Assembly (NCBI GenBank): GCA_041659525.1
Contig: JBAZYC010000001.1
Span: 321,775 to 385,774, forward strand
From: an archaeon
Lineage (GTDB): Archaea > Iainarchaeota > Iainarchaeia > Iainarchaeales > JAAZKV01
DNA: 64,000 nt
Direction of reading: 5' to 3'
The position numbers and the translations under genes are program-made. Positions 1,015 to 54,823 of the stretch are shown here, in pieces (the stretch's first letter is position 1; every line of letters starts with the position of its first letter). The notes under the pieces were generated by a model. It did no database searches and was not told the origin of the DNA. It saw only the letters and a program-made list of their open reading frames with translations.

Positions 1015-2043
1015 TTAATTCTTAATTATCATTTTGTCAACTGTTTGTAATTGTACTCCAACTTGTTGAGCTGGTCTTAAACTTTTTCTAAATGCAACGC
1101 ATCTTTTAATTGTTCCAGGTAATGAACCGAATATTAATGCAAATTCTCCTTGAACCATTCCAAAGTTACTAAATCCACCAGTTGGATTAACTGATGCAAC
1201 ATCTTTTGAAATTTTAATAAGTTTTTTGTTAACTTCAGTTCTGTTGTGGTAACCCATTTGTCCTGGTCTTGCTACTGTCCACATTACTGTTGCTGGGTGC
1301 CATGGTCCGATTGATCCAACTACTCTTTGTTTTTTGTTCTTTGGTCTAAGTGATCGTACCCCGAATCTTTTTACAGGTCCTTGGAATCCTTTTCCTTTTG
1401 TTACTGCTTTAACGTCAAGGAATTCTCCTTCTTTGAATACTTCTTCAAGTGCAACTTCTTTTCCAAGTTTTTCTTTAGCATAAGCTAATTGTTGTTCCTT
1501 TGTTCCGCCTAAAAATAATTCACTTATTTCAGGAGTTTTTTTGAAAGAAGGATTTGTGTGAACTAAAAGAGTAAAGTACTCTATATCAGCAATTTCTTTT
1601 TCAAAATCAGCCATTGTGTAAATATCAGCGTTGTTTTTAACTTCAGCTTTAGTAGGAGTTTCTTTTGCTCCATCATTAGATTGTGGTAATTTAAAGTTCA
1701 AAATTTTTCTTCTTAATTCTTTATCAACATTTTCAGCCATTACGTCGCTTAGTGCAGCGAAACCAATTTCTGCTTTAGCATATGCTCTTACTCCGAAAAC
1801 TTTTAGTGGAGCGCATTCTACTACCGTCGCTGGTACTATTACTTCGTGGTTGAATGATGGACTTGCTTTGTGCATGTTTTTTCCTTGTACTTGAATCATT
1901 CCAACTTTGTAACATAAAAAGTTTAACGGTTTTGCTTCTTGTCCTTCTGTAGCATATCCTCTAATTGTAGGAGTTTGTTTTCTTGCTCTTACTCTAGGAT
2001 AGTAGGATTTAGATCCTCTTCTTGGCGCGTTGAATTCTGACAT
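1015..2043 (-). CDS. rpl3: 50S ribosomal protein uL3
   Basis: 342-aa ORF. It shows the archaeal uL3 N-terminus (PRRGSKSYYPRVRA), FQGPVKRFGV and WHPATVMWTVARPGQMGYHNRTE. Confidence 0.92.
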   Translation of the reverse strand: MSEFNAPRRGSKSYYPRVRARKQTPTIRGYATEGQEAKPLNFLCYKVGMIQVQGKNMHKASPSFNHEVIVPATVVECAPLKVFGVRAYAKAEIGFAALSDVMAENVDKELRRKILNFKLPQSNDGAKETPTKAEVKNNADIYTMADFEKEIADIEYFTLLVHTNPSFKKTPEISELFLGGTKEQQLAYAKEKLGKEVALEEVFKEGEFLDVKAVTKGKGFQGPVKRFGVRSLRPKNKKQRVVGSIGPWHPATVMWTVARPGQMGYHNRTEVNKKLIKISKDVASVNPTGGFSNFGMVQGEFALIFGSLPGTIKRCVAFRKSLRPAQQVGVQLQTVDKMIIKN

Positions 2044-2230
2044 TAAATCACGTTTTCAATTTTTCATTCAATTGAGTACTAGTGCTACTTGCACCGTGGC
2101 AAAAACCCTTTTTTAAGAGCTCTTGAACCAAAAAAACAGATTGTTGTTTTTTGGTATTTACAACCCAAAACTCACCAGAGATTTCGTGTCGCAGTGTACT
2201 CAAACTATAACATATTTTTTAAAACAAATC

Positions 2231-2238
2231 TTTATAAA
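2231..2238 (-). promoter_or_regulatory. TATA-box candidate (TTTATAAA) upstream of the uL3 operon
   Basis: The palindromic octamer TTTATAAA lies ~190 nt upstream of the rpl3 ATG. The same octamer recurs at 15320, 17165 and 51674 upstream of other translation operons. Confidence 0.3.
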
Positions 2239-2346
2239 CCTGCTTTCCGCCTTTCCCAATTTTTACCTCGGAGAAGGGATTAACTCTAATTAAAGCCCGT
2301 AAGTCAATTACTGTCAATTACTTACGCGATTACAGGCTTAAATCCT

Positions 2347-4290
2347 CTATTCCTTCACCCACTTTTCTTCTTCTTGGGGTTTAGTTTGTCCACCAGTAAG
2401 CATTGCAACCAAAATTACTGCTGCAACTATTACTAATAAGATTATTCCTAGTGCACTAATGTTTCCGCCAAATGCGAATAATCCTGCAAACCCTCCCTCC
2501 CCACTTGTAGAGAATTCTTTGCTTATTTCTTGCCCATTAGCAGAGAAAGTTACTTTTCCTCTTCCCTCTGTTGCATTAGTTGTTGGAGTTACGTTTACAA
2601 CAAAAACGTTTTTTCCAGGAGAGAGTGAAACAGTTCTATCTGAACTTACCCACCCATTAGGAGTTTGTACTGAAAGTACCCCCAAGAATGATTTTGTTGT
2701 TGGATTATTTACTTCCACAGTTAAAGTTAGTTCTCCAGTGTTAGCATCTTTAGTTGAATTAATTGTCATTATTGCTTGAGTTAGTTCTCCAGTCCCAGTA
2801 TTAGTTATTGCCACCCTTGTAGTTGAAAAATTACATCCTTCTACAACTGGTCTGAAGTTTATTTCTCCACTTGTTGAATTAATTTTTACTTGTAAGTCTC
2901 TGCTTATTGAAGTTTTTTCTGGTAGAGAAATTATTGAAGGGGTTGCTTCTACACTTCCTTCAATGTAAATATCTGCTCTTTTGTTTGTCCCATTAGTTAT
3001 TGTGAATGGAACTGATCCATAATTTTGTACACTTACACTTGTTGGTGCACTTAGTGAGAAAGCACTACAATTAGCTGCTCCGCTCCCAACTTGATTTATT
3101 ACATTTATGTTAAATGTCTTTGGAGTAATACTAGTAAATGAACAAGTTCTTCCATCAGAGAATTGCCCTCTTACTTTTACTGTATTATCATAAGCTCTGT
3201 CTTGTAATACACTTGGAGCTACTGCTCTAAATATAATATCAGAGTATTGTCCTGAGAAAATATATTTCTCATTATAATAATTTGATAATTCTACTCCGTT
3301 GTTTGTTGTTTGTACTTCTAATATTTCAAATCTTTTTGTTGAATCGTTCTTTAGAGTAACACTTAATTTGCTTTCAGTGGATTCATCCATTGAAAAGTTA
3401 TTTGCGCTTATTAAAATATCATCACAATCTGAACTTGTACTATATCCATTGTCATAATAATATCCATCATAGTAGTATCCACTATCATTATTCCCAGTAT
3501 TTTGCACTGTTACACTAAAAGTTTCTCTACCAATATCTGATGTTGAACAATAAGTATTTCCTAAGTATCCTGCTACTTCCATTGTTGAAGTAATAGTACT
3601 ATTACTTGAAACTGTTCCTGCGTTTAATGTTACACTTATTGGTTCGCTTGAGTAAGCTGAAACAATATTGTCATAATTTGTACTTCCTGAATTTATTAAA
3701 GAATTTGTAGAAAGAATATTCATTGTTGTTATTCTAAATTCTTGATTAGTATTATTTTCTATACTAAATGTTCTTGTTGTGCTTCTTGCTTCATCAATTG
3801 TAATATTACTTGTAGAAAGAATTATTCCGCTACAAGAATTATCTTCAATATCTACGTAACTTTCAGTTCTATCAAGTTCTGTTGATCCAACTAAAACTAC
3901 TCCTTCAATTCTATATCTATCATAGTTGTTGTTACTTCCAGTATTGAATTCGTTATCCCATTGTAATTGAACTGTTCCTCGGGCAAGGTCTTGAGATTTT
4001 GTAGAAGTTGTCCTGTATGTTTCCCAACTCGAAGTATTTACATTGTATTTTGAAACAATTGCTTTTGAAGAAATTGTTGATGGACAATCACTACCAGAGT
4101 AACTGTCTATGTAAAAATAATTTTTAATATCAATATCAGTATTTTTTGAGGCTGAGATACTTGAGTAAAAATCAGCTGTTCCTCTTACTTCTGTTGTAAA
4201 AGAACTCAATTCTACGTTGCAAGCCATTGCTCCGCTTAGTAAAATAGTTACTAGAACCAGCATCGAAATTATTCTTGTTTTCAAATCCAT
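2347..4290 (-). CDS. Secreted Ser/Thr/Asn-rich cell-surface protein with C-terminal GLFAFGGN motif plus TM anchor
   Basis: 647-aa ORF with an N-terminal hydrophobic signal (ISMLVLVTILLSGAMAC), many N-x-S/T sequons and scattered Cys pairs. The C-terminus reads GGFAGLFAFGGNISALGIILLVIVAAVILVAMLTGG. A GGGGTGA Shine-Dalgarno-like element precedes the ATG. Confidence 0.6.
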   Translation of the reverse strand: MDLKTRIISMLVLVTILLSGAMACNVELSSFTTEVRGTADFYSSISASKNTDIDIKNYFYIDSYSGSDCPSTISSKAIVSKYNVNTSSWETYRTTSTKSQDLARGTVQLQWDNEFNTGSNNNYDRYRIEGVVLVGSTELDRTESYVDIEDNSCSGIILSTSNITIDEARSTTRTFSIENNTNQEFRITTMNILSTNSLINSGSTNYDNIVSAYSSEPISVTLNAGTVSSNSTITSTMEVAGYLGNTYCSTSDIGRETFSVTVQNTGNNDSGYYYDGYYYDNGYSTSSDCDDILISANNFSMDESTESKLSVTLKNDSTKRFEILEVQTTNNGVELSNYYNEKYIFSGQYSDIIFRAVAPSVLQDRAYDNTVKVRGQFSDGRTCSFTSITPKTFNINVINQVGSGAANCSAFSLSAPTSVSVQNYGSVPFTITNGTNKRADIYIEGSVEATPSIISLPEKTSISRDLQVKINSTSGEINFRPVVEGCNFSTTRVAITNTGTGELTQAIMTINSTKDANTGELTLTVEVNNPTTKSFLGVLSVQTPNGWVSSDRTVSLSPGKNVFVVNVTPTTNATEGRGKVTFSANGQEISKEFSTSGEGGFAGLFAFGGNISALGIILLVIVAAVILVAMLTGGQTKPQEEEKWVKE

Positions 4291-30966: not shown

Positions 30967-31782
30967 CTAAGAGTACAATTTTTTCTTTCTATTATTAGCA
31001 TACATTGCTATTCCTGCAATTATTACTAGTGCAACTAAAAAAATCATCCCAATTGTAAGACTTTGATTTGATCCCAAAGCAAATAATCCTCCAAAGACAG
31101 CATTCTCAACTGCTTTTGTTTTTGTTAGTTCGTTTAAATCAGAACCAATTTGTGTTAGTACTTCTTCTTTTGTTTTATCGCTTTCTTGTAAAGAAGAAAC
31201 TTTACTATTTATTTGATTAAGTGAATTTACTAAATCCACATTTGCTTGTCTTAATTTTGTTAGTTCTTCTTGTTTTAAATTCAAATCTTGTTGAAGAGTA
31301 GTAATTGTTTTGTTTTGATTGTTTACTGTTACTTGCATACTACCTAATTTTGAATTTAGTTCTTCCCTTTCTGAATAAGAGAGTGGTCTAAAAAAAGTTA
31401 TTTGAACAGAAGTAGAGTCTTCTAAAGAACTTCCTTGAAATATTTTTGCTTCAAGTGCTTTTTCTCCTTCACTTTCTCCAGCAAATGAAATAACTATTTT
31501 GTTTGAATAAATATTGTAACTAATTACTTTTTCATTAGTGTAAATACCAGATCCATCAAGCGAACTAAGGATTAGTTCGTTATCTAAATATACTTTTAGT
31601 TCTGCTCCGCTAGGAAGAGAGTAACTAACAGCGGCAGACCATTGGGTCCCTGCAGGGATATTTTGTTCAGTAGAAATACTTAGTGCTGTGCAAGTACTCA
31701 AAGAAAACAAGCAGAATAGCAAAAAAGCAATTAAATTCAGTTTATTCATTTTATCACTGGTTGTATTACAGAGTAATTTCAC
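30967..31782 (-). CDS. Secreted coiled-coil surface protein with C-terminal GLFALGSN motif, TM anchor and basic tail
   Basis: 271-aa ORF with an N-terminal signal (IAFLLFCLFSLSTCTA) and central heptad-like Leu/Gln/Asn-rich region. The C-terminus reads VFGGLFALGSNQSLTIGMIFLVALVIIAGIAMYANNRKKKLYS. Confidence 0.55.
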   Translation of the reverse strand: MKLLCNTTSDKMNKLNLIAFLLFCLFSLSTCTALSISTEQNIPAGTQWSAAVSYSLPSGAELKVYLDNELILSSLDGSGIYTNEKVISYNIYSNKIVISFAGESEGEKALEAKIFQGSSLEDSTSVQITFFRPLSYSEREELNSKLGSMQVTVNNQNKTITTLQQDLNLKQEELTKLRQANVDLVNSLNQINSKVSSLQESDKTKEEVLTQIGSDLNELTKTKAVENAVFGGLFALGSNQSLTIGMIFLVALVIIAGIAMYANNRKKKLYS

Positions 31783-46872: not shown

Positions 46873-48204
46873 TTATCTAGGAAGAGTATGTCCCCAAGTT
46901 TTGAGTGCTTCTTTTAGTGCAGGACAAGTTTTTGCTTTTTCTTCTACACTTATTTTCTCTAAATAAGCTTCTACTGCAGCCCTCATTGCAACTGCTCCAG
47001 CGTGACTTCCTTTAGGATGTCCATGTACCCCCCCACCAAGTTGAATCATTATGTTTGTTCCAAACATTTTGAATATTTGATCCACTATTCCAGGGTGTAG
47101 TCCTCCGCTTGATACGGGGAACACTGGTTTTAATCCACTCCAATCTTGAGCAAGAGTGTGTTCTCTCATATTTTCTTTTGTCTTAGTGGCAGTTAACTCT
47201 TGTTGGCATTGTAGTACTTCATCTCTTGGGCTAACTAATTTTCCAATGCTTGTTCCAATGTGTAATTGATCTACTCCAATTAGTCTTGAGAGTTTTGAAA
47301 CGCAGTTCATTGAGAAACCGTGGTCAGGGTCTCTAGTCATTGCCCCATGCATTGCTCTATGAGCGTGTATTGCAAGTCCTAAGTCTTCACATTCTTCTCT
47401 TAGAGAATTTACTGCAGTCCAACCTGATGCAATGATATCAATCATTACGTATTCTCCGCCCATTTTTTTTACGTACCGTGCTCTGTCAAGCATTTCTTCT
47501 ACAGTGGGCGCAGTTACATTAATCAAGTAAGATTTTTTTTCCCCAGTTTCTTTTTCTGCTTTGTCTCTCATCTTCAAAGATTTTTCTACTCTTTTTTTGA
47601 ATGGATTAAATTTTTGGTTAGTTAAATTTTCATCATCTTTTAGTAAATCTAGTCCGCCTGTCCAAATATCATATCCTACTTGGGCATGTTCTTCAGTAGT
47701 CATTCCTACTTTTGGTTTTGCAACACTAAGCATCAATGGTCTTTTTTCTTCATTGAATATTTTTCTTATTCCCACAATTCCTTTTTTTGGTCCGCGGTAT
47801 TTTTTCACCATGTTTTTTGAAAATACAATATCTTGTAATCGAAGTCCGTCAACTGCTTTCATTCCAAAAACATTTCCAGCAATTGAAGCTAGTATTTGGC
47901 TTGGATTTTCTTGTTCAAAGTGATCTTCTGGGTAAGCAATTTTTATCCAATAACCTGCAGGAGTGTGTTCTACGCTGTATACTTTTGCAGCAACTTTTCT
48001 TACGTGTGGGTACTTTGCCCAAATATCTAAATCGGTCCAAGTTCCTACACTTGATTCGCTAGCAACTGCTCCAAATGCGCGTTCTGGAGTCTCCCATTCT
48101 GGTACTTTTACTTTGAATACTGCGAGCACATCTTTGTTATTAGGTTTGTACCCTAAATCAACAAAATCTTCATATCCAGCCATTTTTACATCACCTAAGA
48201 TCAA
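46873..48204 (-). CDS. rbcL: Ribulose-1,5-bisphosphate carboxylase large subunit, archaeal form III type
   Basis: 443-aa ORF with GYKPNNKDVLAVFKV, SESSVGTWT, AKPKVGMT, DLLKDDENLT (carbamylated Lys context), HAHRAMHGAM and GGGVHGHP. No small-subunit gene is present. Confidence 0.93.
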   Translation of the reverse strand: MILGDVKMAGYEDFVDLGYKPNNKDVLAVFKVKVPEWETPERAFGAVASESSVGTWTDLDIWAKYPHVRKVAAKVYSVEHTPAGYWIKIAYPEDHFEQENPSQILASIAGNVFGMKAVDGLRLQDIVFSKNMVKKYRGPKKGIVGIRKIFNEEKRPLMLSVAKPKVGMTTEEHAQVGYDIWTGGLDLLKDDENLTNQKFNPFKKRVEKSLKMRDKAEKETGEKKSYLINVTAPTVEEMLDRARYVKKMGGEYVMIDIIASGWTAVNSLREECEDLGLAIHAHRAMHGAMTRDPDHGFSMNCVSKLSRLIGVDQLHIGTSIGKLVSPRDEVLQCQQELTATKTKENMREHTLAQDWSGLKPVFPVSSGGLHPGIVDQIFKMFGTNIMIQLGGGVHGHPKGSHAGAVAMRAAVEAYLEKISVEEKAKTCPALKEALKTWGHTLPR

Positions 48205-52965: not shown

Positions 52966-53676
52966 ATGGCTCTAAACGATCCATTGGAACTAATTCTAAT
53001 ACTAATCTTTCTGGCAGCGTTTTCTATATTTTCTTACAAAAAGAAACTACTTGACTTTGAAGGAATACTAATTGCTAATGCTGTAGGACTTGCAGCAATA
53101 ACTTATGGACCAAATCCATTAGTAGATTTTGGAATAGTTGTAGTATTTTTTATCCTCGGGGAAATTGCAAGTAATTTTCCAAGAAAGAAACATGAGAGAA
53201 GAAATATTTGGAACGTAATAGGAAATTCTCTTCCTGCACTAATTGTTTTAGTTGGAATAATTTTCTTTCCCCAGTACTCTGTTTTAATTGAACTAGGTTT
53301 CTTTGGAGCAATAGCTGCTGCACTCGCAGACACATTATCTTCAGAAGTTGGATATTATTCAAAATCCACTCCTATAATGATTACTACTTTAAAGAAAGTC
53401 CCAAGAGGGACAGATGGAGGAGTAACTCTTTTAGGAGAATTTGCTGCACTAATTGGAGGAGCAGTAATTGCTTTAGTTTATTTTTATATTTACAATAACC
53501 CAATAGCGGCGACATTTGTTTTGCTTGCTGGGTTAGTTGGATCTAATGTTGATTCAATCTTTGGAGCACTATTTGAAACAAAGAAACTAATGAACAACAC
53601 CCACGTGAACATGATTGGTTCTGCTGCAGGTGCAATCTTTTGCTTAGTGTTAGGCTTATTAATTGGAATAAACTAA
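52966..53676 (+). CDS. DUF92/TMEM19-family integral membrane protein
   Basis: 236-aa polytopic ORF with the family-typical ALADTLSSEVG segment and a Gly-rich C-terminal helix pair. Confidence 0.7.
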   Translation: MALNDPLELILILIFLAAFSIFSYKKKLLDFEGILIANAVGLAAITYGPNPLVDFGIVVVFFILGEIASNFPRKKHERRNIWNVIGNSLPALIVLVGIIFFPQYSVLIELGFFGAIAAALADTLSSEVGYYSKSTPIMITTLKKVPRGTDGGVTLLGEFAALIGGAVIALVYFYIYNNPIAATFVLLAGLVGSNVDSIFGALFETKKLMNNTHVNMIGSAAGAIFCLVLGLLIGIN

Positions 53677-53729
53677 AATCTAATTAAATTAAAGATTGAG
53701 TTGAAAAGAGTCTAGCTCGAGTTGATTAA

Positions 53730-54242
53730 ATGGGAATAATAGAAGCAATAATAGTAACTCTTCTTTATGTTGCTCCGCTTTACATTGCTAATTCTTCTCC
53801 AGTAATAGTTCACGGGAAAGTTCCTCTTGATTTAAACAAAAAAATTTTTGGCCAACCTATTTTTGGTAAAGGAAAAACTATGCTAGGAACTTTTGCAGGA
53901 ATTATAGCAGGAACGGGTATTGGAACAATTATTTTTTTATTATTTCCTTTTGTAGAAAACATTATCCCTAATTACTTACAACTTGCTTTCCTCCTTGCTT
54001 TTGGAGCAATAATAGGAGATTTAGCAAAGAGTTTTTTTAAAAGAAGATTTTCAATTAAGAGTGGGGAAAAGTGGGAACTTGCTGATCAATTAGATTTCAT
54101 AGTGGGTGGATTGTTACTTAGTATGTTAATTAGAGTTCCCGAACTTTGGCTTGTAGCACTATTGCTTTTTGCAACTTTCTTCATCCACAAAGTAATGAAT
54201 TGGCTAGCATTCAAATTAAAATTAAAGACCGTTCCTTGGTGA
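53730..54242 (+). CDS. carS: CDP-archaeol synthase
   Basis: 170-aa ORF with YIANSSPV, GKGKTMLGTFAG, GDLAKSFFKRR and ADQLDF motifs typical of CarS (DUF46). Confidence 0.85.
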   Translation: MGIIEAIIVTLLYVAPLYIANSSPVIVHGKVPLDLNKKIFGQPIFGKGKTMLGTFAGIIAGTGIGTIIFLLFPFVENIIPNYLQLAFLLAFGAIIGDLAKSFFKRRFSIKSGEKWELADQLDFIVGGLLLSMLIRVPELWLVALLLFATFFIHKVMNWLAFKLKLKTVPW

Positions 54243-54247
54243 ATTAA

Positions 54248-54823
54248 ATGACTAAAAATAAACTTAACAAAAATAAAAAAGCAAAAACAATTACTAAGAA
54301 AACTAATAAACTTCTTAGAAGTGGTTCTAACTCGACTAAAAAGGCTGCTAATAGAAAAAAAATGTTAGTATTTGCAATAAAATTCTTTGCAATATTTATA
54401 GTTCTGAATTTTTTAATTGAACTAGTTGACCTTTCTTTCTTAACAAACGCAATTACGCAAATCGCAGCAACTATTTTAGGGCTTGATTATTTACTAAATG
54501 TTGTTTATGTGAACAATGGATTGTTTATTGTTTCAAATCTTTGCACTGGACTAGTTAGTGCTAGTATTTTGGCTGCAATTATCTTTTCACTTAACAAACC
54601 AGAACTATCAAAGAAAACTACTTTATTTTTAGCAGGGTTGATAATATTACTAGCAGTAAACATCCCTAGAATAATTTTTGTTTTGTTTGTTGCAAAATAT
54701 GGTTTTGATGCTGAGTTAGTTCACGAACTTACTTGGTTTGTAATGAGTGGATTAGTACTATTGATTTGGTATTATGGTTCTAAAAGATTACTTAAACTAA
54801 AAGAAATTAGTGAACTACTTTAA
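54248..54823 (+). CDS. Exosortase/archaeosortase-family protein (short form)
   Basis: Polytopic ORF 5 nt after the carS stop. Ordered candidate catalytic residues are SNLCTGLVS (Cys), AVNIPRI (Arg) and LVHELTW (His), as in archaeosortases. The first 38 aa are Lys/Asn-rich, and an alternative start is the ATG at 54362. Confidence 0.6.
   Translation: MTKNKLNKNKKAKTITKKTNKLLRSGSNSTKKAANRKKMLVFAIKFFAIFIVLNFLIELVDLSFLTNAITQIAATILGLDYLLNVVYVNNGLFIVSNLCTGLVSASILAAIIFSLNKPELSKKTTLFLAGLIILLAVNIPRIIFVLFVAKYGFDAELVHELTWFVMSGLVLLIWYYGSKRLLKLKEISELL

What the first reader, a model, noticed from the sequence alone, without database searches (positions are those of the whole stretch)
2347..2505. Unnamed C-terminal sorting-signal candidate GLFAxGxNxS + TM helix (copy 1, 647-aa surface protein)
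The 647-aa Ser/Thr/Asn-rich secreted protein ends in GGFAGLFAFGGNISALGIILLVIVAAVILVAMLTGGQTKPQEEEKWVKE. The unrelated coiled-coil protein at 30967..31782 ends in VFGGLFALGSNQSLTIGMIFLVALVIIAGIAMYANNRKKKLYS. Aligned at the start of the shared motif, 7 of its first 10 positions are identical (GLFAxGxNxS), and a TM helix follows in both. This is the signature-TM-tail layout of sortase-type signals. It does not match the named PGF-, PEF-, PIP-, VPXXXP- or PEP-CTERM motifs as I recall them.
Basis: seen in the sequence. Interest (0 to 1): 0.62.

Follow-up and report, generated by a model that had tools for sequence, protein, structure and literature searches.

The report
Portable GLF-box membrane anchor, Iainarchaeota
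Two unrelated surface proteins of a tiny uncultured archaeon end in the same short "GLF" motif followed by a membrane helix; the motif is real, is shared by many different surface proteins across this one phylum, and may be a new tag for a protein-anchoring enzyme, though no cleavage has been shown.

Summary
Both proteins end in GLFAxGxNxS plus a membrane helix, and this tail is their only significant similarity.

Comparison with 215 Iainarchaeota (DPANN) genomes redefines the motif:
- The conserved core is [L/F][A/T/S]-G-[L/F]-F-x-[L/F]-G, then 4-8 residues, then the helix.
- The N-x-S part is not conserved.

The cassette sits on at least five unrelated kinds of secreted protein. It occurs in 116 of 215 phylum genomes but in only 2 of 186 other archaeal genomes.

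Two catalytically intact mini-archaeosortases and a CPBP protease are near-universal in the phylum, so co-occurrence cannot single out a partner. No GLF carrier lies next to a sortase.

Several features are atypical for a sorting signal:
- a spacer between motif and helix;
- long, mixed-charge tails;
- a conserved cytoplasmic Q-x-W motif in most carriers.

The same genomes also carry a textbook signal, (I/V/L)P(D/E)xN + helix + RKK.

My reading is a new, non-canonical archaeosortase-type signal (about 0.45) against a permanent anchor (about 0.40).

The scan noted this motif before in another Iainarchaeota genome (e1-1066595).

The parts
2347..4290 (-). Gene for the 647-aa carrier (likely start at M10, giving 638 aa). 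It has a signal peptide ending ..SGAMAC, then tandem all-beta Ig-like domains, a linker, the GLF box, a TM helix and a cytoplasmic tail.
   Evidence: ORF. AF2 model: mean pLDDT 82, all-beta domains, helix at 603-623. NEW3/NPCBM_assoc Ig-like hit. 37 homologues, all 'hypothetical', some named Candidatus ainarchaeum.
2455..2484 (-). GLFAFGGNIS. The conserved GLF box proper, GLFAFG, is 2467-2484. GNIS is a non-conserved spacer or sequon.
   Evidence: Pattern hit at G000:C1:324230-324258. Column entropies. Motif statistics. AF2 places it in an unstructured low-confidence stretch just outside the helix.
2398..2454 (-). Transmembrane helix ALGIILLVIVAAVILVAML.
   Evidence: Hydropathy scan. AF2 helix.
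2350..2397 (-). Cytoplasmic tail TGGQTKPQEEEKWVKE. It is net acidic, with the conserved Q/E-x-W motif (Trp codon at 2359-2361).
   Evidence: W is present in 33 of 35 family members, entropy 0.32. Trp occurs in 66% of 76 GLF tails against 18% expected.
30967..31782 (-). Gene for the 271-aa carrier: signal peptide, beta-rich part, coiled coil (about residues 138-224), GLF box, TM helix, basic tail.
   Evidence: ORF. Weak coiled-coil family hits. Orthologues of 264-280 aa keep the TGL(F/V/I)x(F/L)G motif and a K-rich ...(F/L)Y end.
31060..31089 (-). GLFALGSNQS (GLF box GLFALG plus non-conserved SNQS).
   Evidence: Pattern hit at G000:C1:352835-352863. HMM A3 score 42 bits.
30970..31059 (-). LT + TM helix IGMIFLVALVIIAGIAMYA + basic tail NNRKKKLYS.
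54248..54823 (+). Mini-archaeosortase ('sortase-1', 191 aa), one of two candidate processing enzymes. Cys99, Arg141 and His159 are invariant.
   Evidence: TIGR04178 at 36-38 bits against a cut-off of 23. The best subfamily, ArtD, scores 43 bits against a cut-off of 125. Invariant C/R/H. Orthologues in 188 of 215 genomes.
52966..54242 (+). DUF92 and CDP-archaeol synthase genes directly upstream of sortase-1 (context: a link to lipid synthesis).
   Evidence: The same synteny appears in divergent families and in one outgroup genome.
1015..2043 (-). Ribosomal protein L3 gene directly downstream of the 647-aa carrier gene (context).
   Evidence: The same adjacency appears in 23 of 30 fetched orthologue loci.

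Best explanation
The stretch encodes the C-terminal anchoring cassette of a secreted surface protein built from tandem Ig-like domains. This protein is probably a major envelope (S-layer-type) protein, and its gene is fixed directly upstream of rpl3.

The cassette has five parts: a flexible linker; a 'GLF box', [L/F][A/T/S]-G-[L/F]-F-x-[L/F]-G; a 4-8-residue spacer that usually ends in (I/L)G; one transmembrane helix; and a cytoplasmic tail.

GLF box plus helix form a portable module. It is attached to at least five unrelated kinds of ectodomain across the phylum Iainarchaeota and is almost absent outside it.

Most likely the box is the handle by which a shared membrane-embedded enzyme, one of the two phylum-wide mini-archaeosortases, recognises these proteins. 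That would make it a new, non-canonical class of archaeosortase sorting signal. The proposed sequence is: the protein is exported by Sec and held by the helix; it is then cut at or near the GLF box at the outer membrane face; the ectodomain is passed to a lipid, as ArtA does with PGF-CTERM proteins.

Shown: the motif, its conservation, its portability, its phylum specificity, signal peptides on carriers, and intact candidate enzymes.

Inferred: recognition, cleavage and lipid attachment. Also inferred is which sortase acts; by elimination it is more likely the second one (G000:C1:222881-223549), because the IPD-type signal tracks the window enzyme.
For: Motif and carriers:
- The layout is motif, helix and tail, with at least 3 near-invariant residues: G0, F2 and G5, plus L1 in 61 of 76 tails.
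- Flanking linker and tail are hypervariable, so selection acts on the box itself.
- The 250 residues upstream of the motif fall into at least 4 large unrelated clusters plus singletons. Domains differ among carriers: HYR, Big_7, fn3, CarboxypepD_reg, NEW3, coiled coil.
- Carriers start with signal peptides.
- In this genome the core motif occurs only before C-terminal helices.

Distribution:
- 116 of 215 phylum genomes carry it, against 2 of 186 outgroup archaea at E<=1e-5.
- Both outgroup positives carry archaeosortase genes. One has the same CarS-linked mini-sortase plus a sortase-2-like gene.

Candidate enzymes:
- Two archaeosortase-family genes with Cys/Arg/His are present in 188 and 178 of 215 genomes. 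Short divergent copies occur in the apparent gaps.
- The genome has no classical sortase and no rhomboid.
- The canonical IPD-type signal is detected in only 109 of 215 genomes and in 0 of 7 genomes of family f2. Those genomes keep both sortases and GLF proteins.

Other support:
- Some carriers have a fully canonical end, for example TGLFALG..SRRKK, TGFFGLG..RQRKK and GLFALG..KKKGKK.
- AF2 puts the box in an unstructured stretch just outside the helix, so it would be accessible.
- There is a parallel with the Haloferax S-layer glycoprotein (Ig-like domains plus PGF-CTERM). Foldseek hits 7ptp_A at E=5e-10, but this is a generic match between tandem Ig folds.
Against: - No GLF carrier lies within about 20 kb of either sortase in the rows inspected.
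- Both sortases and the CPBP protease are near-universal in the phylum, so co-occurrence does not discriminate.
- Motif-to-end length is long and variable: median 48 aa, range 34-89. For the IPD signal in the same genomes it is 26 aa (IQR 25-27).
- Tails are mixed-charge; 38% have net charge of zero or below. They are sequence-conserved (Q-x-W, GKW(A/G)Y) rather than a short Arg/Lys cluster.
- About a quarter of carriers have 45-60-aa cytoplasmic extensions with motifs of their own.
- A spacer separates box and helix. Haft states that PEP-, PGF- and GlyGly-CTERM motifs abut the helix.
- Only 2 strict copies exist in this genome.
- There is no proteomic or experimental evidence of cleavage.
Confidence: 0.45

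Rival explanations
1. Permanent bitopic anchor. The helix is never removed. The GLF box is a membrane-proximal element that docks all these proteins to a common envelope or membrane partner, or packs their anchors together. The conserved cytoplasmic Trp motif binds something inside the cell.
For: - A conserved Q-x-W lies near the C-terminus: 33 of 35 in the main family, and 66% of all tails against 18% expected.
- Families exist with 45-60-aa cytoplasmic tails that carry their own conserved motifs, SIYS and GKW(A/G)Y.
- Many tails, copy 1 included, lack a short terminal basic cluster.
- There is a spacer before the helix.
- No gene linkage to any processing enzyme was found.
- An earlier scan note on another genome reached the same view (e1-1066595).
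Against: - A sequence-specific extracellular box shared by unrelated ectodomains normally implies a shared machine, and none other than the sortases is evident.
- The Trp tail is absent from several carrier families that keep the box, including the P271 family, the PHQFYG family and families f2, f9 and f14. The tail is therefore an add-on and not part of the shared module.
- ArtA can process a signal that is not C-terminal (PMC6098224).
Confidence: 0.4
2. A sorting signal processed by a different enzyme: the phylum-wide CPBP/Rce1-like intramembrane protease (as myxosortases process MYXO-CTERM), or an unknown enzyme.
For: - One CPBP gene lies at G000:C1:290060-290308, and the family is present in 178 of 215 phylum genomes.
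- Haft 2023 shows that CPBP-family enzymes process several C-terminal signals.
Against: - The known CPBP-processed signals have an invariant Cys in the motif. The GLF box has none.
- No adjacency to GLF carriers was seen.
- In this genome the CPBP gene is closer (about 3 kb) to an IPD-type protein.
Confidence: 0.07
3. Chance or compositional resemblance between two Gly/Leu/Phe-rich juxtamembrane stretches, or simple paralogy of a whole C-terminal domain.
For: - The N-x-S part is explained by composition. There are 15 sequons in the 647-aa protein, as expected from its Ser/Thr/Asn content.
- Many larger carriers share an Ig-like last domain (cluster 0).
Against: - The box is the most conserved part of the C-terminal 80 residues across 35 orthologues.
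- It recurs on coiled-coil, PHQFYG-type, HYR/fn3 and Ig-type proteins.
- It occurs nowhere else in the proteome.
- The pair ranks among the top 2 of 820 pairs.
Confidence: 0.02

Closest known systems
[quoted passage not shown]
   Same: - A secreted protein of tandem Ig-like domains with a low-complexity linker.
- A short Gly/Phe-containing motif just outside a C-terminal helix.
- An archaeosortase-family enzyme with Cys/Arg/His in the genome, whose gene sits next to lipid-synthesis genes (here CarS).
   Different: - No Pro in the motif, and no match to TIGR04126 or any other CTERM model.
- A 4-8-residue spacer before the helix.
- Tails are long, mixed-charge and carry a conserved Trp.
- The enzymes are 140-225-aa 'mini' forms that fall below every named subfamily cut-off.
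- Cleavage is untested.
Pacearchaeosortase (NF033505) with PACE-CTERM-PROT putative S-layer protein (NF033506)
   Same: It is a precedent for a DPANN-specific mini-archaeosortase paired with a lineage-specific C-terminal region of a putative S-layer protein.
   Different: - The window enzyme scores 25 bits against a cut-off of 80 for NF033505.
- The 647-aa protein matches no NCBIfam model.
- The phylum and the motif are different.
The (I/V/L)P(D/E)xN + helix + RKK signal in the same genomes (unnamed; resembles VPDSG-/VPEID-/PIP-CTERM and, in family f4, LPETN resembles LPXTG)
   Same: It sits on secreted proteins of the same organisms and is phylum-restricted. It has a motif, a helix and a tail.
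   Different: - It is fully canonical: the motif abuts the helix, motif-to-end length is 23-32 aa, the tail is a 2-5-residue basic cluster, and there is no Trp.
- It lies 3-5 kb from sortase-1 in families f1 and f4. GLF carriers do not.
SlaB-type S-layer stalk of Sulfolobales (permanent C-terminal TM anchor)
   Same: The 271-aa carrier has the same layout: signal peptide, beta domain, coiled coil, C-terminal helix. There is a weak SlaB hit at E=0.29.
   Different: - There is no significant sequence similarity.
- SlaB has no motif shared with other surface proteins.
- Sulfolobales lack archaeosortases (PMC6098224).

Membership tests
Tripartite C-terminal sorting signals (attributes of Haft 2023, bioRxiv 10.1101/2023.06.07.544157, section 5) | [quoted passage not shown] | tested here: inconclusive
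   Motif-to-end length has median 48 aa and range 34-89. About a quarter of carriers have 45-60 aa after the helix. The canonical IPD signal in the same genomes measures 23-32 aa.
Tripartite C-terminal sorting signals (Haft 2023) | [quoted passage not shown] | tested here: met
   This genome has 2 strict copies plus 2 degenerate ones. Relatives have 1-5 matches per genome at E<=1e-5. These numbers are low.
Tripartite C-terminal sorting signals (Haft 2023) | [quoted passage not shown] | tested here: met
   In the main family, G (34 of 35), F (35 of 35) and G (33 of 35). Across 76 tails, L1 occurs in 61, F2 in 69 and G5 in 61 (the tails were partly pre-selected by a loose pattern).
Tripartite C-terminal sorting signals (Haft 2023) | 4) Strongly hydrophobic transmembrane segment | tested here: met
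   Hydropathy scan. AF2 helix at 603-623.
Tripartite C-terminal sorting signals (Haft 2023) | 5) Cluster of 2-5 basic residues at the end | tested here: not met
   Copy 1 ends TGGQTKPQEEEKWVKE. Of 76 tails, 38% have net charge of zero or below, and median tail length is 18 aa. The feature is met only in some carrier families: copy 2 (NNRKKK), L082 (SRRKK) and L108 (RQRKK).
Tripartite C-terminal sorting signals (Haft 2023) | 6) N-terminal signal peptide on most carriers | tested here: met
   Judged by inspection of n-, h- and c-regions of the window proteins, 10 other carriers and 36 homologues. No signal-peptide predictor was available.
Tripartite C-terminal sorting signals (Haft 2023) | 7) Many carrier pairs share no similarity other than the signal | tested here: met
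   BLASTP of the two window proteins. Clustering of upstream regions. Different Pfam domains.
Tripartite C-terminal sorting signals (Haft 2023) | 8) Homologues in other lineages lack the signal or carry a different one | tested here: inconclusive
   Only in-phylum homologues of the 647-aa protein were found. Of 3 homologues of the PHQFYG-type carrier, 2 keep a GLF-like box and 1 has a plain helix plus RRK.
Exosortase/archaeosortase-processed signals specifically | Signature motif abuts the helix without a spacer (Haft 2023) | tested here: not met
   The spacer has median 4 residues to the hydropathy-window start and 4-12 residues by eye. AF2 places the box 4 residues before the helix.
Exosortase/archaeosortase-processed signals specifically | Co-occurrence with, or gene neighbourhood of, a dedicated sortase subfamily | tested here: inconclusive
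   - The enzymes are near-universal in the phylum, so the profile carries no information.
- No adjacency was found.
- Both outgroup genomes with the motif have sortases, but about 60% of sampled outgroup genomes do too.
Named CTERM models (PGF, PEF, PIP, VPXXXP, IPTL, PEP and others in NCBIfam) | HMM match above cut-off | tested here: not met
   Neither tail matched a CTERM model at E<=10. The whole proteins gave none either.
Exosortase/archaeosortase enzyme family (for window 54248-54823) | TIGR04178 signature above cut-off, and conserved Cys, Arg and His | tested here: met
   36-38 bits against a cut-off of 23. C99, R141 and H159 are invariant in 11 orthologues. Named subfamilies are not met: ArtD 43 against 125, ArtE 30 against 95, pacearchaeosortase 25 against 80.
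Proteolytic removal of the helix and lipid attachment (what defines a true ArtA-type substrate) | Absence of C-terminal peptides in the mature protein; lipid adduct | not testable with these tools
   This needs proteomics or heterologous expression.

The most novel reading that the evidence does not exclude
The GLF cassette is a two-sided sorting signal of a kind not yet described. An extracellular GLF box is cut by a mini-archaeosortase. A conserved cytoplasmic Trp motif (Q-x-W, GKW(A/G)Y) on the same helix acts as a second determinant read from inside the cell, for example to gate or time cleavage or to dock the released stub. The putative S-layer protein of Iainarchaeota would then be anchored through a regulated hand-over from helix to lipid. 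Together with the canonical IPD-type signal, this would give two orphan DPANN archaeosortases their two substrate classes.
Probability: 0.15. Interest if true: 0.75.

Novelty: new variant of a known kind. Interest (0 to 1): 0.5.

Why it matters
DPANN archaea have tiny genomes, and their biology depends on their cell surface. Even so, how their envelope proteins are anchored is unknown, and their mini-archaeosortases have no assigned substrates.

This work gives a phylum-wide HMM-ready motif, a list of carrier families that includes a probable major envelope protein, two candidate enzymes, and a contrasting canonical signal in the same cells. Together these turn the question 'what do DPANN archaeosortases act on?' into a simple reporter or proteomics experiment.

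If the cassette is instead a permanent anchor, the conserved cytoplasmic Trp motif points to an unrecognised link between surface proteins and the cell interior.

Tried and rejected
- A strict DNA pattern for GLFAxGxNxS across the phylum gave only 3 more true hits. This showed the 10-residue motif was over-specified, so I replaced it with HMMs.
- A region-restricted search of the 5.8-billion-protein set with the tail found only an 88%-identical orthologue. It was uninformative.
I reached outgroups through 'relatives' with n=400 instead.
- I looked for a clean absence test, because genus g20 and family f2 seemed to lack sortase-1. This was rejected: they carry short divergent copies next to DUF92.
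- I asked whether the cytoplasmic Trp tail co-varies with the conserved K(D/E)FSELL C-terminus of sortase-1. Families f2 and f9 lack both, but f14 and f4 are counter-examples. I make no claim from this.
- I checked whether the 1548-aa GLUG-repeat protein upstream of sortase-2 defines that enzyme's motif. Its tail (TAFFGLD..KKKK) is not retrievable in relatives, with hits in 5 of 37 genomes. This is inconclusive.
- I suspected that PHQFYG-type carriers belong to the PGF-pre-PGF family. No NCBIfam hit supports this, so I dropped it.
- Haft 2012 (PMC3256604) is not held in the library. Statements about ArtB-E motifs rest on my own knowledge and on PMC6098224.
Full report
OBSERVATION

Window 2347-4290 (-) encodes a 647-aa Ser/Thr/Asn-rich protein ending ...GGFAGLFAFGGNISALGIILLVIVAAVILVAMLTGGQTKPQEEEKWVKE. 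Window 30967-31782 (-) encodes a 271-aa protein ending ...VFGGLFALGSNQSLTIGMIFLVALVIIAGIAMYANNRKKKLYS. The two decamers share 7 of 10 residues. BLASTP finds the tails (E=3e-4) as the only significant similarity between the two proteins.

The resemblance is unlikely to be chance. In the whole 1.06-Mb genome (G000, 3 contigs, 32% GC, 89% complete) a loose core pattern occurs only in these two ORFs. Both copies sit directly before the C-terminal helix. Among 820 pairs of ORFs with a C-terminal helix, only two pairs reach 7/10, and the other pair involves an antisense ORF. No NCBIfam or Pfam model matches either tail.

LINEAGE

The neighbouring genes are archaeal (CDP-archaeol synthase). Homologues are named Candidatus ainarchaeum. 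Earlier scan notes place the genome in Iainarchaeota, DPANN.

WHAT THE MOTIF REALLY IS

The strict 10-residue pattern found only three more true copies in 215 phylum genomes. An HMM built from five tails matched 168 of 215 genomes at E<=0.1. I fetched about 90 hits and derived 76 non-redundant tails. The position preferences are:
- position -2: L or F;
- position -1: A, T or S;
- G0;
- L1 in 61 of 76;
- F2 in 69 of 76;
- a small residue at position 3;
- L or F at position 4 in 69 of 76;
- G5 in 61 of 76;
- then 4-8 variable residues that often end in (I/L)G, then the helix.

Asn at +7 occurs in only 24 of 76 tails and Ser at +9 in 12 of 76. The 647-aa protein has 15 sequons, as expected from its composition.

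In 35 homologues of the 647-aa protein, the box is an island of conservation. Entropies are G 0.19, L 0.59, F 0.0 and G 0.37, within a linker and tail that score 2.5-3.4. The protein mean is 1.73.

PORTABILITY

The 250 residues upstream of the box fall into at least four large unrelated clusters plus singletons:
- orthologues of the 647-aa protein;
- a broad group of 200-1311-aa proteins with Ig-like last domains;
- coiled-coil proteins, including orthologues of the 271-aa protein and a family of about 350 aa;
- a family whose tail ends GKW(A/G)Y;
- a PHQFYG/CarboxypepD_reg family.

Pfam finds HYR, Big_7, fn3, CarboxypepD_reg, NEW3 and FixG_C Ig-like domains. All inspected carriers begin with signal peptides.

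SPECIFICITY

A refined 57-sequence HMM (A3) at E<=1e-5 matched 116 of 215 phylum genomes. It matched only 2 of 186 archaeal genomes outside the phylum. The two outgroup hits are genuine and have canonical basic tails: GLFALG..KKKGKK on a PHQFYG-type protein, and GLFGLG..KRRKTKK.

THE CARRIER

The AF2 model of the 647-aa protein has mean pLDDT 82. It shows a string of all-beta Ig-like domains, an unstructured low-confidence stretch containing the box, one helix (603-623 of 638) and a disordered tail.

Foldseek gives only generic matches to tandem Ig proteins, among them the Haloferax S-layer protein 7ptp_A.

The gene lies directly upstream of rpl3 in 23 of 30 fetched loci, a stable housekeeping position. 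I therefore regard the protein as a probable major envelope protein. This is an inference.

CANDIDATE MACHINES

The genome has two archaeosortase-family genes. Both carry Cys, Arg and His, and both fall below every named subfamily cut-off.
- Sortase-1 is window 54248-54823. It follows DUF92 and CarS.
- Sortase-2 is G000:C1:222881-223549.

Orthologues occur in 188 and 178 of 215 genomes. Apparent gaps in families f9 and f2 are filled by short divergent copies that still sit next to DUF92.

A CPBP/Rce1-like protease is also near-universal, in 178 of 215 genomes. The genome has no classical sortase and no rhomboid.

Because every candidate is ubiquitous, phylogenetic profiles within the phylum cannot pick a partner. 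In the rows I could inspect, no GLF carrier lies within about 20 kb of either sortase.

Outside the phylum, both GLF-positive genomes have archaeosortase genes. One has a CarS-adjacent mini-sortase plus a sortase-2-like gene. However, about 60% (22-23 of 37) of sampled outgroup genomes have such genes too. None of the 14 sampled sortase-free genomes had the motif.

A SECOND, CANONICAL SIGNAL

Four other ORFs of this genome end in (F/N)IPD(S/G/N)x + helix + K/R. A refined HMM finds this (I/V/L)P(D/E)xN class in 109 of 215 genomes, and I verified the tails.

This signal is textbook. The motif abuts the helix. Motif-to-end length has median 26 aa (IQR 25-27). The tail is a short basic cluster of about 4 residues with no Trp.

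An IPD-type gene lies 3-5 kb from sortase-1 in many f1 genomes. In family f4 (LPETN variant) it lies on the other side and the other strand (coordinates; tails). It is absent from that position in this genome, where S15, S3Ae and Bud32 genes lie instead.

HOW THE GLF CASSETTE DEPARTS FROM THE TEXTBOOK

- Motif-to-end length has median 48 aa and range 34-89.
- The tail has median 18 aa, and 38% of tails have net charge of zero or below.
- Trp occurs in 66% of tails against 18% expected.
- In the main family, Q-x-W is nearly invariant, with W in 33 of 35 members.
- Other families end GKW(A/G)Y or K-rich ..(F/L)Y, or have 45-60-aa cytoplasmic extensions.
- Haft's list of eight attributes, and his remark that archaeosortase and exosortase motifs abut the helix, give a mixed score. 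Attributes 2, 3, 4, 6 and 7 are met. Attribute 5 and the no-spacer rule are not met. Attributes 1 and 8 are inconclusive.
- ArtA can nevertheless process a signal that is not C-terminal (PMC6098224).
- Several carrier families keep the box with a fully canonical basic end. The Trp tail is therefore an add-on rather than part of the shared module.

READING

The box plus helix is a real, portable, phylum-specific module under strong selection. A sequence-specific extracellular box shared by unrelated ectodomains implies a shared partner.

The best available candidates are the two orphan mini-archaeosortases. Two enzymes and two motif classes fit the usual one-subfamily-one-motif rule. The IPD class tracks sortase-1, which by elimination leaves sortase-2 for GLF.

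I put a non-canonical archaeosortase signal at about 0.45. A permanent anchor with a docking box and a cytoplasmic Trp motif stands at about 0.40. Processing by CPBP or an unknown enzyme is about 0.07. Chance or simple paralogy is about 0.02. Nothing here shows cleavage.

PRIOR KNOWLEDGE

- I found no paper describing this motif, or Iainarchaeota surface anchoring, in the searchable library.
- The scan itself noted a 'GL-x-GL-S/G + TM' motif on four surface proteins of another Iainarchaeota genome. It judged that motif real and phylum-wide but without positive signs of sorting (e1-1066595). My results agree and add five things: the refined logo, the outgroup test, the carrier catalogue, the Trp tail, and the contrasting IPD-type signal.

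Noticed in passing
G000:C1:286117-287217, C1:407264-407758, C1:257157-258938, C2:49697-50161 (outside the window); loci L119-L148, L226-L270: There is a second, fully canonical C-terminal sorting signal: (I/V/L)P(D/E)xN abutting a helix, then RKK at the very end. In family f4 it reads LPETN, like LPXTG. It is often preceded by a Cys-x2-C...YF beta strand. It occurs in 109 of 215 phylum genomes, matches no NCBIfam model, and lies 3-5 kb from the window-type mini-archaeosortase in families f1 and f4.
   Followed up: yes
window 2350-2397 (-) and tails in loci L017-L118: A conserved cytoplasmic Trp motif lies near the C-terminus of most GLF carriers. Forms include Q/E-x-W-V/E.., GKW(A/G)Y and PKWKY. 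It is present in 66% of tails against 18% expected and is unexplained by any sorting-signal model.
   Followed up: partly
window 4219-4263 (-), N-terminus of the 647-aa protein: In 35 homologues the signal peptide ends ..[GS]A[FYM]AC, and the Cys is nearly invariant (A7 position C15). This looks lipobox-like and raises the possibility of an N-terminal lipid anchor in addition to the C-terminal helix.
   Followed up: no
window 1015-4290 (-): The GLF-carrier gene sits directly upstream of rpl3 on the same strand. This adjacency holds in 23 of 30 fetched loci, essentially all family f1 orthologues.
   Followed up: partly
window 54770-54823 (+), C-terminus of the mini-archaeosortase: Sortase-1 orthologues keep a conserved cytoplasmic C-terminal K-x-K-(D/E)-F-S-E-L-L motif. 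The short (140-164 aa) versions in families f2 and f9 lack it.
   Followed up: partly
G000:C1:290060-290308 (-): A single CPBP/Rce1-like intramembrane protease lies about 3 kb from an IPD-type protein gene. The family is present in 178 of 215 phylum genomes, usually 6-27 kb from sortase-1 (conserved core synteny).
   Followed up: partly
L272 (G291:C6:6758-10012) and L276 (G291:C21:2794-5907): An archaeal genome outside the phylum (43% GC) has the same CarS plus mini-archaeosortase pairing and a sortase-2-like gene. It also has a PHQFYG-type protein ending GLFALG + helix + KKKGKK.
   Followed up: partly
window 46873-48204 (-): A 443-aa ORF reads like a form III RuBisCO large subunit. This is my own reading of the sequence and was not checked with a tool.
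   Followed up: no
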